Shown here piece after piece: positions 5,323 through 11,063 of a stretch of DNA of 50,093 nt. This DNA comes from Thermomicrobiaceae bacterium (GTDB taxonomy: Bacteria > Chloroflexota > Chloroflexia > Thermomicrobiales > Thermomicrobiaceae), in contig SLMJ01000049.1 of assembly GCA_007133615.1 (NCBI GenBank), forward strand, positions 1-50,093. Direction: 5' to 3'. Positions within the stretch are counted from its first letter, which is position 1; every line of letters starts with the position of its first letter. The notes under the pieces are model-generated. The model had not been told where the DNA came from and made no database searches. It saw nothing but the letters and a program-made list of their open reading frames with translations. The position numbers and the translations under genes were made by a program.

Positions 5323-5440
5323 ACGTGTTTGCAGGGCGTGTCTTGCCGCATCAGTGTTGATGAAGTAGCATCCTGCCGACATCAGTACGACGTGCACCCG
5401 CTATTCTGCGGGTGCTTTCTGTGGGAAGGGATCGAATCTG

Positions 5441-6472
5441 GTGCGGTTGACGAGTATTCCCCGTGTAGACATTGCCCATTTGCCGACACCGCTGGAGCCA
5501 GCACCGAACCTGAGTGAGGAACTCGGCGGTCCGGAGATCTGGATCAAGCGTGACGATCTGACCGGTCTCGCGCTCGGCGGCAACAAGGCCCGAAAACTGG
5601 AGTTTCTGGTTGCAGATGCCATCCAGCAGGAAGCGACTGTGCTAATGACGGCGGGCGCCCCGCAGTCTAACCACTGTCGCCAGACGGCGGCCGCAGCACG
5701 GAAAGCTGGCATGAAATCCGTGCTGATCTTTGCGCCGTATTCCAAGCACTACGGTTCAACGGATCCTGATCAGGCTCCGCAGGGGAATTTGCTGCTGGAC
5801 AAAATCATGGGCGCTCGAATCGAGTGGTACCACGGCGACTGGCAGGATCGACTCGCCTTTATGGACCAGATCGCTGCGGATCTTCGAGACAAGGGCGAAC
5901 GACCGTACGTCATTCCTGGCGGTGGGTCGAATCCAGTTGGCGCGACCGCCTACGTAAACGCGGTCTACGAGACGATGAACCAGTTGCGCGAACTGTCGCT
6001 CAATGCAACGCACTGGTACACGACGAGCAGCACCTCCGGCGGCACGCATGCCGGGCTGTCACTCGGGGTGAAGCTCGCGCACGCACCGTTTACGGTCGTC
6101 GGCAGCGCGTGCGATCAGGACGCCACGAAGACGAAGTCGGTTGTGGTCCCGCTTGCGAATGCGACCGCCGAACACATCGGAACCGATGTCCGGATCAGCG
6201 ACGAAGAGGTCATCGTCGACGACAACTACTACCTGCCCAGTTACGGGATCCCGAACGAAGGCTGCCTGGAGGCAATCGAGATTGCGGCGCGGACCGAAGG
6301 ACTGTTGCTCGATCCGGTCTATACCGGGAAGACGATGTCGGCGCTGATCGACCATGTTCGAAAAGGCAAGCTGACAAGCAACGACACGGTTATCTTCCAC
6401 CACACCGGTGGAACACCGGCGCTGTTCGCCCAGGCGGACGGAATTGCCGGATCGTTCAGCGAACCAGAGTAA
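5441..6472 (+). CDS. D-cysteine desulfhydrase / 1-aminocyclopropane-1-carboxylate deaminase-family PLP enzyme
   Basis: LPTPLE...IKRDDLTGLALGGNKARKLEFL contains the PLP lysine, and a GG.SN loop and a C-terminal HTGG are present. GTG start with a GGAAGGG upstream. Confidence 0.85.
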   Translation: MRLTSIPRVDIAHLPTPLEPAPNLSEELGGPEIWIKRDDLTGLALGGNKARKLEFLVADAIQQEATVLMTAGAPQSNHCRQTAAAARKAGMKSVLIFAPYSKHYGSTDPDQAPQGNLLLDKIMGARIEWYHGDWQDRLAFMDQIAADLRDKGERPYVIPGGGSNPVGATAYVNAVYETMNQLRELSLNATHWYTTSSTSGGTHAGLSLGVKLAHAPFTVVGSACDQDATKTKSVVVPLANATAEHIGTDVRISDEEVIVDDNYYLPSYGIPNEGCLEAIEIAARTEGLLLDPVYTGKTMSALIDHVRKGKLTSNDTVIFHHTGGTPALFAQADGIAGSFSEPE

Positions 6473-6573
6473 GTCTGACGCGCTTCAATCAGTGGCCCGA
6501 TCCTTGCGTGCCGAAATTGGTACGCAGGTCGGGCTGAACTTGACATCCGGCCTTGTCACAGCATGTCGCCAGT

Positions 6574-6603
6574 TTGCACGCGTTGCTGAGCATCCGTTAG
6601 TAT
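6574..6603 (+). promoter_or_regulatory. candidate sigma-70-type promoter (TTGCAC, 18 nt spacer, TAGTAT) inside the long non-coding gap
   Basis: Hexamers read directly: TTGCAC at 6574-6579 and TAGTAT at 6598-6603. It would drive a plus-strand transcript toward the ABC operon. Based on sequence resemblance only. Confidence 0.25.
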
Positions 6604-6862
6604 TGGCGAATAGCGTCCGTTTCTACACGGACCATGCGAACCCCTTGAACCGGTGAAATCAGTTGGAACTGAGGTCCGGTTTGGCTTTTGTCGTGTCAGC
6701 GGCTGCTGGCATGATAACGGGTCACCAGTGACTTACGGGGTAATTCAGCGGGCTCTTGCCGCCTGAATCGGGTCGAGGAGTGCTTCGATGGTGGACGCTC
6801 CGCTCGCCCGAATGAGCGAAGAATCGCGATACAGCAAGTCCATCGTTGAGAAGGAGAAACTG

Positions 6863-6904
6863 ATGTTCGCCTCAGGATCTGGATACTGCCCAGCGGTTTT
6901 CTGA
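6863..6904 (+). CDS. candidate 13-codon leader micro-ORF (MFASGSGYCPAVF)
   Basis: A perfect Shine-Dalgarno AAGGAG at 6851-6856 lies 6 nt upstream of ATG 6863, with TGA at 6902-6904. It is the only SD-preceded start in an otherwise ORF-less 0.8 kb region. Too short to judge coding from composition. Confidence 0.2.
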   Translation: MFASGSGYCPAVF

Positions 6905-7282
6905 GAAGATTCCGCGTCAGGTGCAAAGCAACGCATCGGCCACAGGGTTGCCCGGGTAGTTCGAGTGCCCCGGCACACCGGTCGAGACGGATCGCAGACA
7001 CCACCGCGAGTCCGTCGCGACAAAACGGCACGGAAAACGCATAGCGAATCCCGCTCAGTACTCTCACGCCGGATATCCCCGGCACAGCACGAACATGATG
7101 GCGCTCTCGGAACCGGGGGCAACTGCCAGCGATGCAAAGTGAGACTGGCAGATCCGGCCGGGACAGGCGGAGACGCCTTCATGGCTTGAGGGCCTCACGC
7201 TGAAGACCTGAAAACGGTTGTGAAGATAATCACGAGTGAGCGCGGGATTCGATCTTTTGAGAGCAGGCGAGGAGGAGGAATC

Positions 7283-8983
7283 ATGACGATGTGGAACAAG
7301 CTCAATGCGACTCGAGTAACTGAACTCAACGGGATGGCGATGTCGCGCAGGACGCTCTTGCGCCGTGCGGCCGTGGCAGGCCTGGCCACGCCGGCAATTG
7401 CCGGGCTTCTTGCGGCCTGTGGTGAGGACGACGATGTCGACGACACTGCAGATCTTGGCGATACCGACGACGCAGACGATGAAGAGATCGACGTCACCGA
7501 TGATGCCGACGACGTCGCCGAGGAAGACGAGCCGGATGCCGATGAGCGCCGCGGTGGTACGCTGCGGATCGGGTTGAGTGGCTCCGCCGAGAATTTCGAC
7601 CCTCACCACCAGACCCAGTTTGACTCCATCTGGGTCAACGGCATGATGTACAACCGTCTGGTCCGGATTGACCCGGACATGCAGCCGGTTCCCGACCTTG
7701 CACATTCATGGGAACAGGACGACGAAGCAACCGAGTGGACGTTCCAGCTCCATGAAGGCGTGATGTTCCATAACGGTCGTGAAATGACCGCGGAAGACGT
7801 CGTGGAATCATTCGAGCGACTAAAGGATCCGGATGAGGGAACTGCGTTCGCGCAGCAATTGGACATGATCGACAGCGTGGAAGCGACGTCCGATTACGAA
7901 GTTGTTTTCCACATGGACGGATCCTATGCAGATCTGCTCGCTGTTCTCGGATTCTATGCCTTCCGGATTATTCCGATCGAGGACGCCGAGAATCTCGCGA
8001 CCGAACCGGTGGGTACCGGCCCATACAAGCTGCTGTCACACAGCCCGGACGAGCGGACGGTGCTCGAGCGGTTTGACGACTACTTCCTGTCTGACGAAGA
8101 GGGCTTTCTTGATGAAATTCACTACATCAAGATCGAGGAAGAGACCTCGCGTCTGACCGCACTGACGGATGGCACTGTCGATCTGGTCAACGAGGTTTCT
8201 CCGTCATCCCTGCCGATGATCGAGGGCAGCCCGGAACTCGAGATCGAAGAAATTGTGACCGGCAGCTACCACGTCTTCGCCATGCAGGCAGACGAAGAGC
8301 CCTTCACTGATGTCAACGTCCGGCGGGCGTTCAAACTTGTTGCCGAGCGCTCCGAGTTCGTCGAAACCGTTCTACAGGGCTATGGCGTGGAAGCGGCCGA
8401 TCAGCCAATTCCGCCGAACGATCCAATGTACGGTGAGGTTGAGATTCCGGACCGGAACATCGAGGAAGCCCAGCAGTTGCTGGAAGAAGCTGGCTATGGA
8501 GACGGCCTGCAGATCGAGCTTCATACGACGGCTGGTCGCGTCGGACTGCACGAAGCTGGTCTGACGTTCCAGGAACATGCATCTCAGGCCGGAATCGAGG
8601 TAGAAGTCATCAACCACCCGGTCGATTCCTACTGGGCAGACGTCTGGATGCAGCGCCCGTTCCACATGAGCAACTGGGGACAGCGGCCGAACGCCGATCT
8701 GGCGTTCACCGTGGCCTACGTTGAGGGAGCGTCGTGGAATGAATCCAACTGGACGAACGAGGAGTTTGAGGAGTTGCTCAGCGAGGCACGCGGCATTCTG
8801 GACGACGACGAGCGGCGCGAAGTGTATCGCGAAGCCCAGCAGTTGCTTTCAGATGAAGGCGCCGTGATCATTCCGTATTTCATTTCGGTGATCGGCGCGT
8901 GGTCAAATCGGGTGCACGGCTTCGCGCTGAACCCAACTCGAATGGTCGAGCTCCACAAGGTGTGGATCGAAAACGGCATGTAG
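7283..8983 (+). CDS. ABC transporter substrate-binding lipoprotein, family 5 (peptide/nickel/opine type), Tat signal
   Basis: Twin-arginine signal SRRTLLRRAAVAGLA followed by lipobox LLAAC. A long acidic D/E linker precedes a typical SBP_bac_5 body (TLRIG..., W.FQLHEGV.FHNG...). GGAGGAGGA lies upstream of ATG 7283, and 7334 or 7340 are alternative starts. Confidence 0.85.
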   Translation: MTMWNKLNATRVTELNGMAMSRRTLLRRAAVAGLATPAIAGLLAACGEDDDVDDTADLGDTDDADDEEIDVTDDADDVAEEDEPDADERRGGTLRIGLSGSAENFDPHHQTQFDSIWVNGMMYNRLVRIDPDMQPVPDLAHSWEQDDEATEWTFQLHEGVMFHNGREMTAEDVVESFERLKDPDEGTAFAQQLDMIDSVEATSDYEVVFHMDGSYADLLAVLGFYAFRIIPIEDAENLATEPVGTGPYKLLSHSPDERTVLERFDDYFLSDEEGFLDEIHYIKIEEETSRLTALTDGTVDLVNEVSPSSLPMIEGSPELEIEEIVTGSYHVFAMQADEEPFTDVNVRRAFKLVAERSEFVETVLQGYGVEAADQPIPPNDPMYGEVEIPDRNIEEAQQLLEEAGYGDGLQIELHTTAGRVGLHEAGLTFQEHASQAGIEVEVINHPVDSYWADVWMQRPFHMSNWGQRPNADLAFTVAYVEGASWNESNWTNEEFEELLSEARGILDDDERREVYREAQQLLSDEGAVIIPYFISVIGAWSNRVHGFALNPTRMVELHKVWIENGM

Positions 8984-10049: not shown

Positions 10050-11063
10050 ATGTTGTATCAGCAGCACAATCCGGAACGTCAACGGGCCCTGGGTGGCATC
10101 ACCGTGCACCACTCGACGATCGCCGGGTCTCACGAGCATGGGCACGGTGGGCAGCCTCCGGGTGAGCCTGGGCCGGACGCAAACGCCTCGTATGACTACG
10201 GTGTTGACGACACCGAAACGCCGTCGGTCTTTCGGCAGATTATTCGAACTCCCGGGGTTGCGATTCCCGGAGCGATTCTGCTGATGTTCCTGCTGATCGC
10301 CGTGGTTGCGCCGCTCATTGCTCCGTATCCACCGACCGAGTTTCACTCGGGTCGATCTTATGAAGGACCGAGCGCGGACTTCCTTCTGGGTACCGATCAG
10401 TTCGGTCGCGACATCCTGAGCCGGGTCCTGGTCGGAACGCGAAGCATCTTCCTGGTCTCCTTCAGTGCGACGGCGTTTGGTGTGCTGCTCGGCACGCTGG
10501 TCGGGCTGACTGCCGGATACTACGGCGGGAAGACAGATGAAATCGTCATGCGCATCGCAGATGCTGTTATGAGTTTCCCGTCTCTGCTTCTGGCGCTCTT
10601 CGTTCTGACGATGTTCGGGCCGGCGGTTATCAATGTGATCATCGCAATCGGGATCGTCTTCATACCGCGCGTTGCCAGGATCATCCGAAGCGTCGCCCTG
10701 GACATCAGGACCAATCAGTTCATCCAGGCAGCCGAAGCCAGAGGAGAGCGCGGCGTGTACATCATCCTGCGGGAGATGCTGCCGAATGCCTGGCCGCCGA
10801 TCATCGTTGAGAGCTCGATCCGGGTCAGTTACGCGATTCTGATTAGCGCGTCGCTCGGGTTCCTGGGGCTTGGTGTGCAGGAACCAACACCGGATTGGGG
10901 GCTGATGATCTCCCAGGGACGTAACGTGATCGCAGTTGCCCCGTGGAACGTGCTCGCACCGGCGGTGGCGATTTCAGCGCTCGTCATCTCAACGAACCTC
11001 TTTGCGGATGGGTTGAGCCGCATCCTGCTCGCCGGAGGGCGCGTGGAGGGAGCCAACGAATGA
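10050..11063 (+). CDS. ABC transporter permease (DppC/OppC-like) with His-rich N-terminal extension
   Basis: Core motifs: LIAPYPP, LGTDQFGRDILSRV, and an EAA loop FIQAAEARGERGVYIILREMLPNA. GGAGGAG lies immediately upstream of ATG 10050. The first ~60 residues (..HHSTIAGSHEHGHGG..) precede TM1. Confidence 0.85.
   Translation: MLYQQHNPERQRALGGITVHHSTIAGSHEHGHGGQPPGEPGPDANASYDYGVDDTETPSVFRQIIRTPGVAIPGAILLMFLLIAVVAPLIAPYPPTEFHSGRSYEGPSADFLLGTDQFGRDILSRVLVGTRSIFLVSFSATAFGVLLGTLVGLTAGYYGGKTDEIVMRIADAVMSFPSLLLALFVLTMFGPAVINVIIAIGIVFIPRVARIIRSVALDIRTNQFIQAAEARGERGVYIILREMLPNAWPPIIVESSIRVSYAILISASLGFLGLGVQEPTPDWGLMISQGRNVIAVAPWNVLAPAVAISALVISTNLFADGLSRILLAGGRVEGANE

What the first reader, a model, noticed from the sequence alone, without database searches (positions are those of the whole stretch)
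6473..7282. An 0.8 kb ORF-less, hairpin-rich gap upstream of the ABC/ureohydrolase/amidase operon: candidate large structured leader or ncRNA
Elsewhere in this window intergenic spacers are mostly under 150 nt. Here about 810 nt separate the D-Cys-desulfhydrase-family stop (6472) from the solute-binding-protein start (7283).

The track ORFs in this interval (6408-6656 and 6965-7189 on plus; 6696-7085, 6745-7182 and the 3' end of 7064-7705 on minus) translate to Arg/Cys/Pro/Ser-rich strings that do not look protein-like.

The region contains a plausible plus-strand promoter (TTGCAC, 18 nt, TAGTAT at 6574-6603) and many local stems:
- GCGTGCC/GGTACGC at 6506-6525
- GTCCGT/ACGGAC at 6615-6632
- CGCGA/TCGCG around 7006-7020
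- CTGCCAG/CTGGCAG at 7122-7150
- GGCG-GAGA-CGCC, a GNRA-type loop, around 7167-7178

No convincing terminator lies between the promoter and the operon. That is consistent with a ~675-nt 5' leader or an independent RNA. I could not match it to tmRNA, RNase P, SRP, cobalamin or guanidine riboswitch consensus sequences.
Basis: partly seen in the sequence, partly recalled or inferred. Interest (0 to 1): 0.6.

Follow-up and report, generated by a model that had tools for sequence, protein, structure and literature searches.

The report
Long operon leader with tiny uORF
The 0.8 kb "empty" stretch is mostly a long transcribed leader in front of a nutrient-uptake operon. It has its own conserved promoter and a conserved 13-codon mini-gene, so it is probably a regulatory device of a known general kind, not a new RNA gene or a dead gene.

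Summary
The gap is real: 810 nt with no coding signature and no protein or Rfam match. It has two parts.

- **6473-~6540:** the 3' end of the upstream PLP-enzyme gene, with a strong terminator-like hairpin.
- **~6610-7282:** a ~670-nt 5' leader of the ABC/ureohydrolase/amidase operon.

Comparison with a second lineage of the same genus (Thermomicrobiaceae/Sphaerobacteraceae MAGs from soda lakes) gives 45% identity across the leader and 38-39% between four conserved islands. The islands are:
- the promoter block at 6571-6608 (87% identical);
- an SD plus 13-codon uORF at 6850-6904 (same length, start and UGA stop, no gaps);
- a TCCCGCT...hairpin element at 7045-7083;
- a TTGTGA-N6-TCAC palindrome at 7217-7236.

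In a metatranscriptome of the source habitat, one contig starts at 6622, 19 nt after the -10 box, and runs unbroken into the binding-protein gene. The 6489-6609 depth bin has no RNA cover, although DNA contigs cross it.

My best reading is a uORF-containing regulatory leader, possibly with nascent-peptide or Rho control, plus an operator. Interest is moderate.

The parts
6497..6534 (+). Terminator-like hairpin of the upstream PALP (D-Cys-desulfhydrase-family) gene. It has no U-run and lies outside the leader.
   Evidence: Folded. The sister lineage has an unrelated 11-bp perfect stem at the same position. The last RNA-run contig listed on the PALP gene ends at 6451.
6571..6608 (+). Conserved promoter block P1: -35-like TTGCAC at 6574-6579, 18-nt spacer, -10-like TAGTAT at 6598-6603.
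   Evidence: 33/38 identical to lineage B, against 38-39% in the non-island segments. Unique in the genome. The RNA contig starts 19 nt downstream.
6610..7282 (+). About 670-nt 5' leader of the ABC/ureohydrolase/amidase operon. The exact transcription start is inferred.
   Evidence: Metatranscriptome contig, 1522 nt, depth 15.9, covers 6622-8146 without a break. The RNA depth bin 6489-6609 reads 0, while DNA contigs span 5400-8146.
6615..6632 (+). 5'-proximal stem-loop GTCCGT/ACGGAC.
   Evidence: Pair probability 0.87. A shifted CCGTC/GACGG hairpin sits at the same place in lineage B.
6639..6742 (+). About 100-nt folded domain closed by an invariant CCCC/GGGG helix.
   Evidence: 5/5 closing pairs are kept in lineage B, with one A-U to U-A swap. 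Both lineages close this helix when the domain is folded alone, but the internal folds differ.
6850..6856 (+). Shine-Dalgarno sequence (GAAGGAG) of the uORF.
   Evidence: The SD region 6843-6862 is 15/20 identical to lineage B with no gaps.
6863..6904 (+). 13-codon uORF (MFASGSGYCPAVF, stop UGA).
   Evidence: Same start, length, frame and UGA stop in lineage B (MYPASAGHSPTVF). It is the only start/stop/frame-conserved ORF in the transcribed leader among 64 candidates on both strands. 14 nucleotide differences: 7 at codon position 1, 1 at position 2, 6 at position 3. Not found elsewhere in 401 genomes of the class.
7000..7100 (+). C-rich, G-poor tract in the untranslated spacer (possible Rho entry site; inferred).
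   Evidence: C/G is 1.6-1.67, between the genome's 95th (1.56) and 99th (1.89) percentile. A weaker bubble (1.35) lies at the matching place in lineage B. A Rho gene is present.
7045..7083 (+). Conserved element TCCCGCT-N-TCTC followed by a GCCGG(A) hairpin.
   Evidence: Conservation peak of 20/30. Also present in G005. In the window, 7045-7054 pairs perfectly with 7242-7251, and 7/10 of those pairs are kept in lineage B.
7123..7151 (+). Hairpin CTGCCAG/CTGGCAG.
   Evidence: Pair probability 0.96. Lineage B has a hairpin CTATCGG/CTGATGG at about the same place. The MAFFT alignment does not put the two in register (2/7 pairs kept).
7217..7236 (.). Palindrome TTGTGA-N6-TCAC(G/A)A: operator-like DNA site, or a small RNA hairpin.
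   Evidence: Apart from the SBP RBS, it is the only multi-base block invariant in all five same-genus upstream regions. Half-sites are fixed and the spacer varies. It is not enriched genome-wide.
7270..7285 (+). RBS (AGGAGGAGGA) and ATG of the family-5 solute-binding protein, first gene of the operon.

Best explanation
The gap holds no gene, no pseudogene and no free-standing RNA gene.

Its first ~70-100 nt are the 3' end of the upstream PLP-enzyme transcript, with a terminator-like hairpin. From about 6610 onward it is the ~670-nt 5' leader of the nine-gene ABC-importer/ureohydrolase/amidase operon. This is transcribed from a conserved sigma-70-like promoter at 6574-6603. I count the promoter as shown by conservation, and transcription through the whole leader as supported by one metatranscriptome.

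About 250 nt into the leader, ribosomes are recruited by a canonical SD to a conserved 13-codon uORF ending in UGA. That it is translated is inferred from conservation of SD, start, length, frame and stop, and from sparing of codon position 2.

Most likely mechanism (inferred, about 25-30%): the fate of the ribosome on this uORF, normal release or nascent-peptide-dependent pausing at the conserved G-[YH]-[CS]-P-x-V-F-UGA end, decides whether the following ~380-nt untranslated, partly C-rich spacer is open to Rho. That in turn decides whether RNA polymerase reaches the transporter genes.

A second layer is a locus-specific TTGTGA-N6-TCAC palindrome about 50-90 nt before the transporter's start codon in the same-genus relatives (58 nt in the window). 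It most likely binds a dimeric DNA-binding regulator as a roadblock or an activator.
For: - **Synteny and gap size.** The LLM-PALP-gap-SBP order and the ~750-810-nt gap recur in lineage B of the genus.
- **Conserved islands.** The leader is 45% identical overall and 38-39% between islands. P1 is 87%, the SD 75% and the uORF 67% identical, all without gaps.
- **Conserved spacing.** From -10 to the uORF ATG is 260 vs 258 nt. From the uORF stop to the SBP ATG is 379 vs 385 nt (coordinates).
- **Transcription.** The RNA-run contig covers 6622-8146 (depth 15.9). The RNA depth bin 6489-6609 reads 0. PALP RNA contigs are patchy at depth 5-6.3. DNA contigs are continuous.
- **uORF.** It is the only conserved ORF in the leader. 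Substitutions are mostly conservative (F/Y, S/A, Y/H, C/S, A/T). The single G001-vs-L006 difference inside it is synonymous.
- **No classic attenuator.** No intrinsic terminator on the plus strand.
- **Rho.** A Rho gene is present, and there is a C>G bubble downstream of the uORF in both lineages.
- **Palindrome.** It is invariant in five upstream regions.
- **Precedents.** 14-aa uORF peptides that arrest at a UGA stop (PepNL, NanCL: PMC11890864); TnaC with RF2 at UGA (PMC8450073); uORF-gated Rho termination (ToiL: PMC12121999).
Against: - Only two independent lineages carry the promoter and uORF region, so conservation statistics are anecdotal.
- The RNA evidence is one run kept as assembled contigs. 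These cannot show strand, true 5' end or a single transcript, and DNA carry-over cannot be excluded.
- The C-rich tract is modest, especially in lineage B (1.35, below the 90th percentile).
- Nothing shows that the peptide arrests ribosomes. The uORF has no known arrest motif.
- No -10-like element follows the palindrome, so its role is open.
- The uORF was not found outside this genus.
Confidence: 0.6

Rival explanations
1. Two transcription units. P1 drives only a short RNA that carries the 13-codon ORF (a micropeptide gene or dual-function sRNA). The operon is started from a proximal promoter controlled through the TTGTGA-N6-TCAC site. The continuous RNA contig would then reflect read-through or assembly of overlapping transcripts.
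For: The palindrome matches the CRP/FNR-type TGTGA-N6-TCACA consensus and is invariant in five relatives. Three Crp-family HTH genes are present. Lineage B has a strong 9-bp hairpin right after the uORF stop. Contigs cannot prove a single transcript.
Against: No conserved -10-like element lies downstream of the palindrome in the five sequences (read). The post-uORF hairpin is not conserved in the window and has no U-run. RNA cover is unbroken in a single contig from 6622 to 8146. A 13-aa peptide is too short for a membrane helix.
Confidence: 0.15
2. The leader is a ligand-sensing structured RNA (an unnamed riboswitch-like element). The uORF is incidental or part of the expression platform.
For: - Leader length and internal spacings are conserved to within 2-6 nt despite sequence divergence close to saturation.
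- Fold z-scores are -2.4 and -5.0.
- Window MFE pairs are kept in lineage B at 53%, against 36-45% for slid controls.
- A CCCC/GGGG-closed ~100-nt domain occurs in both lineages.
- A paralogous transporter operon in another family has a ~285-nt leader with covariation support.
Against: - No Rfam family matches at E<=10 in the window or E<=5 in lineage B.
- The RNAalifold covariation term is about 0.
- Internal folds of the two lineages differ.
- The z-score in lineage B is equally low on the antisense strand.
- The conserved islands are a promoter, an SD/ORF and a palindrome, not the paired-junction pattern of an aptamer.
- The other family's leader is not detectably homologous.
Confidence: 0.12
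3. The gap is decayed coding DNA or a neutral spacer with no function of its own. Only the promoter is functional, and the short ORF is conserved by chance.
For: GC content of the gap (0.54-0.63) equals that of the genes. One 50-nt, 80% BLASTN match of 7150-7199 falls inside a LacI-family gene of another genus.
Against: - No codon-position periodicity.
- No Pfam hit on any frame.
- HMMER against 1.84 billion proteins gives only a repeat-protein artefact.
- The other antisense frame matches only itself.
- tblastn with that LacI protein gives noise only.
- PF13377 has no six-frame match anywhere in this genome at E<=10.
- Lineage B also lacks a long conserved ORF here.
- The SD, start, stop and length of the uORF are conserved without indels, while flanks carry many gaps.
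Confidence: 0.05

Closest known systems
Stop-codon arrest uORFs: E. coli PepNL and NanCL (14 aa) and TnaC (PMC11890864, PMC8450073)
   Same: A very short uORF (13 vs 14 codons) with its own SD in the leader of a catabolic/uptake gene. It has a UGA stop and its best-conserved residues are at the C-terminal end. In the tna case, an untranslated spacer follows in which Rho can act.
   Different: No sequence similarity. Arrest is untested. The phylum is different (Chloroflexota/Thermomicrobia). The uORF sits 380 nt from the regulated gene. There is no Trp or Pro at the critical positions known from TnaC.
uORF-gated Rho termination, e.g. ToiL upstream of topAI-yjhQ (PMC12121999)
   Same: A long 5' region with a short translated ORF whose ribosome occupancy would control premature Rho-dependent termination before the first structural gene.
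   Different: In ToiL the signal is antibiotic-induced stalling. Here neither the signal nor Rho dependence is known, and the rut-like tract is only a modest compositional bias.
Classical leader-peptide attenuators (trp, his, leu type)
   Same: A short leader ORF upstream of a metabolic operon.
   Different: No run of regulatory codons, and no terminator/antiterminator pair with a U-tract. The distances are far too long.
CRP/FNR-type binding sites (TGTGA-N6-TCACA)
   Same: The palindrome has this half-site sequence and spacing. It is perfect in lineage B and G005, and 9/10 in the window.
   Different: It lies inside the transcribed leader with no recognisable -10 at the class II distance. The motif is not enriched in the genome (2 perfect sites; scrambled controls 0-3). 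It could equally be the operator of a locus-specific repressor.
Riboswitch leaders of transporter operons (Rfam classes, including the guanidine classes)
   Same: A long, moderately structured 5' UTR in front of an importer/catabolic operon that contains a ureohydrolase.
   Different: No covariance-model match and no demonstrable conserved fold.

Membership tests
Any Rfam 15 family (riboswitches, T-box, leaders, sRNAs) | Covariance-model score at or near the family's gathering threshold | tested here: not met
   Window 5800-8000: best hits in the gap score 16.5 bits against thresholds of 50-88. Lineage B leader: no hit at E<=5.
Structured cis-regulatory RNA (generic) | A secondary structure shared by relatives and supported by compensatory changes | tested here: inconclusive
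   Covariation term +1 and -3.4 kcal/mol. 53% of window pairs are kept in lineage B, against 36-45% for slid controls. Only 2-3 independent lineages are available.
Ribosome-arrest / regulatory uORF | A short ORF with a functional translation start inside the 5' leader of the regulated gene | tested here: met
   GAAGGAG, 6-nt spacer, ATG at 6863. It lies inside the RNA-covered leader. SD and start are conserved.
Ribosome-arrest / regulatory uORF | Peptide-level constraint: conserved length, frame, C-terminal residues and stop codon | tested here: met
   13 codons and a UGA stop in both lineages. G7, P10, V12 and F13 are identical. 1 of 14 differences falls at codon position 2. n = 2 lineages.
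Ribosome-arrest / regulatory uORF | Demonstrated stalling (toeprint, peptidyl-tRNA) and an effect on downstream expression | not testable with these tools
   Needs in vitro translation or reporter assays.
Rho-dependent attenuation | Rho present, and a C-rich, G-poor, unstructured untranslated tract downstream of the uORF | tested here: inconclusive
   Rho found at C210. C/G is 1.6-1.67 at 7000-7100 but only 1.35 in lineage B. The tract is partly base-paired in the MFE fold.
Classical amino-acid leader-peptide attenuator | Tandem regulatory codons, plus alternative terminator/antiterminator hairpins with a U-run | tested here: not met
   The peptide has no codon run. No plus-strand terminator was found.
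CRP/FNR-type operator | TGTGA-N6-TCACA dyad | tested here: met
   Window: TGTGA-AGATAA-TCACG. It is perfect in lineage B and G005.
CRP/FNR-type operator | Position at about -41.5 or -61.5 relative to a promoter; membership of a regulon | tested here: not met
   No conserved -10 lies downstream. There are 2 perfect sites genome-wide, against 0-3 for control dyads.
Pseudogene | Translated similarity to a protein family, or residual codon periodicity | tested here: not met

The most novel reading that the evidence does not exclude
The 13-codon uORF encodes a metabolite-sensing ribosome-arrest peptide, analogous to TnaC, SpeFL or PepNL. It would couple the presence of the operon's still unknown guanidino/amide substrate to Rho-dependent read-through of a 380-nt spacer. 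This would be the first such nascent-peptide sensor in Chloroflexota/Thermomicrobia and one of the shortest known.
Probability: 0.2. Interest if true: 0.65.

Novelty: new member of a known kind. Interest (0 to 1): 0.4.

Why it matters
Regulatory leaders and uORFs are almost uncharted in Chloroflexota. This locus has a mapped candidate promoter and RNA support from its natural habitat. It also has a minimal conserved uORF whose C-terminal residues and UGA stop are fixed.

That makes it a compact, directly testable candidate for nascent-peptide or Rho-based control of an uptake/catabolic operon with an unassigned substrate. If the peptide senses a metabolite, it would also point to that substrate.

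If it is only a long leader with an operator, the result is ordinary, but it still corrects the annotation: the stretch is not an RNA gene and not a pseudogene.

Tried and rejected
- **Rfam.** Nothing on the window or on lineage B.
- **Pseudogene.**
  - Pfam on 10 frames found nothing.
  - Codon-position GC is flat.
  - The 149-aa antisense frame hits only a copy of itself on a 1522-nt contig.
  - The 160-aa frame hits only a tandem-repeat nonsense protein, through one ~29-bit segment repeated 12 times.
- **LacI remnant.** A 50-nt BLASTN hit of 7150-7199 lies in a LacI-family gene of G015. tblastn gives only noise. PF13377 has no six-frame match in this genome at all. I treat it as chance.
- **More homologues.**
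  - The metagenome-contig scan with an SBP alignment returned one irrelevant locus.
  - Plasmid BLAST found nothing.
  - A degenerate uORF pattern over 401 genomes of the class matched only the three known loci.
  - Loosened SD and promoter patterns in G002, G004 and G005 gave only one chance hit, which appears to lie inside coding sequence (not checked).
- **Global CRP-like regulon.** Not supported.
- **Classical attenuation.** No terminator and no codon run.
- **Homology to the g31 leader.** nhmmer finds none.
- **Earlier notes.** The look-up for relatives found no look-alike windows.
- **RNA cover gaps.** Patches of the PALP gene without RNA cover are not interpreted.

Full report
**Observation**

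The interval 6473-7282 lies between the stop of a PALP-family (D-Cys-desulfhydrase/ACC-deaminase-like) gene and the ATG of a family-5 solute-binding protein. That protein opens a same-strand run of two permeases, a fused double ATPase, an arginase-family ureohydrolase, two amidases, an LLM oxidoreductase and an SDR.

The gap has the GC content of the genes but no coding signature:
- The spread of GC over the three codon positions is 0.24-0.52 in most windows inside the flanking genes and 0.02-0.22 in the gap.
- None of ten stop-to-stop frames hits Pfam.
- A crude genome-wide gene call puts 810 nt above the 95th percentile of spacers.

**Not a pseudogene**

- The 149-aa antisense frame finds only itself.
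- The 160-aa frame finds only a tandem-repeat nonsense protein, through one weak segment counted twelve times.
- A 50-nt BLASTN match to a LacI-family gene of another genus is not backed by any translated similarity. The LacI ligand-domain profile has no six-frame match anywhere in this genome.

**Relatives**

The organism is a Thermomicrobiaceae/Sphaerobacteraceae MAG. The runs holding this DNA are soda-lake and alkali-sediment metagenomes.

Three records of a second lineage of the genus (G001, G003, L006) keep the order LLM-PALP-gap-SBP, with a gap of ~750-810 nt and no conserved long ORF. G005 and G002 contribute 411 and 172 nt upstream of their SBP genes.

Window versus lineage B is 45% identical over the leader and 38-39% in the stretches between islands, which is about what saturated sequence gives. 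Four islands stand out:
- (i) 6571-6608, 33/38 identical, containing TTGCAC-N18-TAGTAT.
- (ii) 6843-6904, an SD (15/20 identical) and a 13-codon ORF (28/42 identical), with no gap.
- (iii) 7045-7083, TCCCGCT...TCTC followed by a GCCGG(A) hairpin, also present in G005.
- (iv) 7217-7236, TTGTGA-N6-TCAC(G/A)A. Together with the SBP RBS this is the only multi-base block invariant in all five upstream regions.

All four are unique to this locus in the genome.

Spacings are kept within 2-6 nt: from -10 to the uORF ATG is 260 vs 258 nt, and from the uORF stop to the SBP ATG is 379 vs 385 nt.

**Transcription**

One run of the source study is a metatranscriptome of the same sample as a DNA run. Its contigs show three things:
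- Patchy, low-depth cover of the PALP gene (depth 5-6.3). The last listed piece ends at 6451.
- Zero depth in the 6489-6609 bin.
- One 1522-nt contig (depth 15.9) whose first base is 6622. It runs through the uORF, the spacer and the palindrome to 8146 inside the SBP gene. The DNA contig breaks at 8146 too, and the next RNA contig carries on from there.

DNA contigs cross 5400-8146 without a break. The RNA onset, 19 nt after the -10 box, is what a start at ~6610 would give after assembly trimming.

Caveats, as the tool itself states them: contigs show neither strand, nor true ends, nor a single molecule; DNA carry-over is possible; this is one study.

**The first part of the gap**

It lies upstream of the promoter. 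Lineage B has a different, 11-bp perfect stem at the same place. Both lack a U-run. I read this as the terminator or 3'-end structure of the PALP gene, not as part of the leader.

**The uORF**

- ATG 6863 is preceded by GAAGGAG at a 6-nt distance.
- The ORF ends at UGA 6902-6904.
- Lineage B has the same start, 13 codons and a UGA stop.
- Of 64 ORFs of 6 or more codons on both strands of the aligned gap, only this one is conserved in start, stop and frame within the transcribed leader. The other, an 8-codon frame, is simply the promoter block itself.
- The 14 nucleotide differences fall 7/1/6 on codon positions 1/2/3.
- The amino-acid changes are mostly conservative. G7, P10, V12 and F13 are identical.
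- The one difference between G001 and L006 is synonymous.
- A degenerate pattern for the peptide matches nothing else in 401 genomes of the class.

**Structure**

The leader is moderately more stable than shuffles: z = -2.4 in the window, and -5.0 in lineage B, but there on both strands.

Many local hairpins are predicted in each lineage, but their architectures differ. RNAalifold gives essentially no covariation term. Window MFE pairs are kept in lineage B somewhat more often than in slid controls: 53% against 36-45%.

Individual candidates exist: the CCCC/GGGG closing helix with one swap, and the 7045-7054/7242-7251 pairing, of which 7/10 pairs are kept. With two to three lineages none can be established. 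No Rfam family matches.

**The palindrome**

It fits TGTGA-N6-TCACA. The genome encodes three Crp-family HTH proteins. However, the motif is not enriched genome-wide, and no -10-like element is conserved downstream of it.

Fixed half-sites with a variable spacer favour a DNA-binding dimer over an RNA hairpin. Its distance to the ATG varies among the relatives.

**Mechanism**

- Shown or well supported: a conserved distal promoter, and a transcribed ~670-nt leader continuous with the operon.
- Inferred: translation of the uORF.
- Hypothesised: ribosome behaviour at the conserved C-terminal residues and UGA stop controls Rho access to the 380-nt untranslated spacer. Rho is present. There is a C>G tract at 7000-7100. 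There is no intrinsic terminator.

Precedents are PepNL and NanCL (14 aa, arrest at a UGA stop; PMC11890864), TnaC (PMC8450073) and ToiL-gated Rho termination (PMC12121999). No regulator gene lies in the operon, and the notes on the flanks mention none. This makes a cis-acting device plausible.

**Side result**

Transporter operons with 45-47% identical SBPs and the same fused ATPase, but different catabolic genes, occur in another family (genus g31). They also have ORF-less upstream regions. An invariant TAGCATC lies 279-289 nt before the ATG in all seven.

That leader has no uORF and no Rfam hit. It shows covariation support on the RNAalifold structure: 89% of cells paired against 32-48% for slid controls, 16 pairs changed on both sides against 4-11, and 0 of 500 shuffles as high.

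Two cautions apply. The structure was derived from the same seven sequences. One of them (L103) comes from G339, which the tool marks as unpublished, so this claim rests partly on an unpublished genome.

This leader is not detectably homologous to the window's leader.

**Limits**

The upstream DNA of closer SBP relatives (P0002-P0004 and others) could therefore not be examined. That is the main reason the structural and uORF conservation tests remain thin.

**Verdict**

This is a real, transcribed, genus-specific long leader with a conserved promoter, a conserved micro-ORF and an operator-like palindrome. It is a new, non-homologous instance of a known kind of regulatory arrangement. It is not a novel RNA gene and not a dead gene.

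Noticed in passing
L107:1025-1330, L106:1030-1330, L105, L104, L108, L101, L103 (genus g31, family f4): Paralogous family-5 ABC operons have a ~285-nt ORF-less leader of conserved length behind an invariant TAGCATC. There is covariation support for about 10 helices. The SD is partly paired, and the start codon sits in the loop of an invariant GCAAG/CUUGC hairpin. There is no Rfam hit, so this is a candidate unnamed structured leader. One of the seven sequences (L103, from G339) is from an unpublished genome.
   Followed up: partly
whole genome G000: The LacI-family ligand domain PF13377 has no six-frame match at E<=10 in this 98%-complete 3.8-Mb genome, although it rings in 11 of 14 control genomes.
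   Followed up: no
window 5441-5620: One metatranscriptome contig on the PALP gene begins exactly at its GTG start codon (5441). This could be chance at low depth, or it could hint at a leaderless mRNA.
   Followed up: no
window 6833; 7513: An A>G difference at 6833 (in the leader, 17 nt before the uORF SD) is seen in the RNA run and both soda-lake/alkali-sediment DNA runs laid (X5 has no cover here). A 3-nt deletion at 7513, in the acidic linker of the SBP, is seen in two runs. So the assembled window differs slightly from the dominant population.
   Followed up: no
G000:C332:1744 and C332:4549-4767: One of only two perfect TGTGA-N6-TCACA dyads in the genome lies about 3 kb from a Crp-family regulator gene on the same contig.
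   Followed up: no
window 7420-7560: After its lipobox-like AACGE, the SBP carries a ~45-residue Asp/Glu-rich linker. This would fit a haloalkaliphilic (soda-lake) origin.
   Followed up: no
window 10943-11063: The longest ORF of the fused double-ATPase gene overlaps the preceding permease ORF by 121 nt. The true start is probably further downstream.
   Followed up: no
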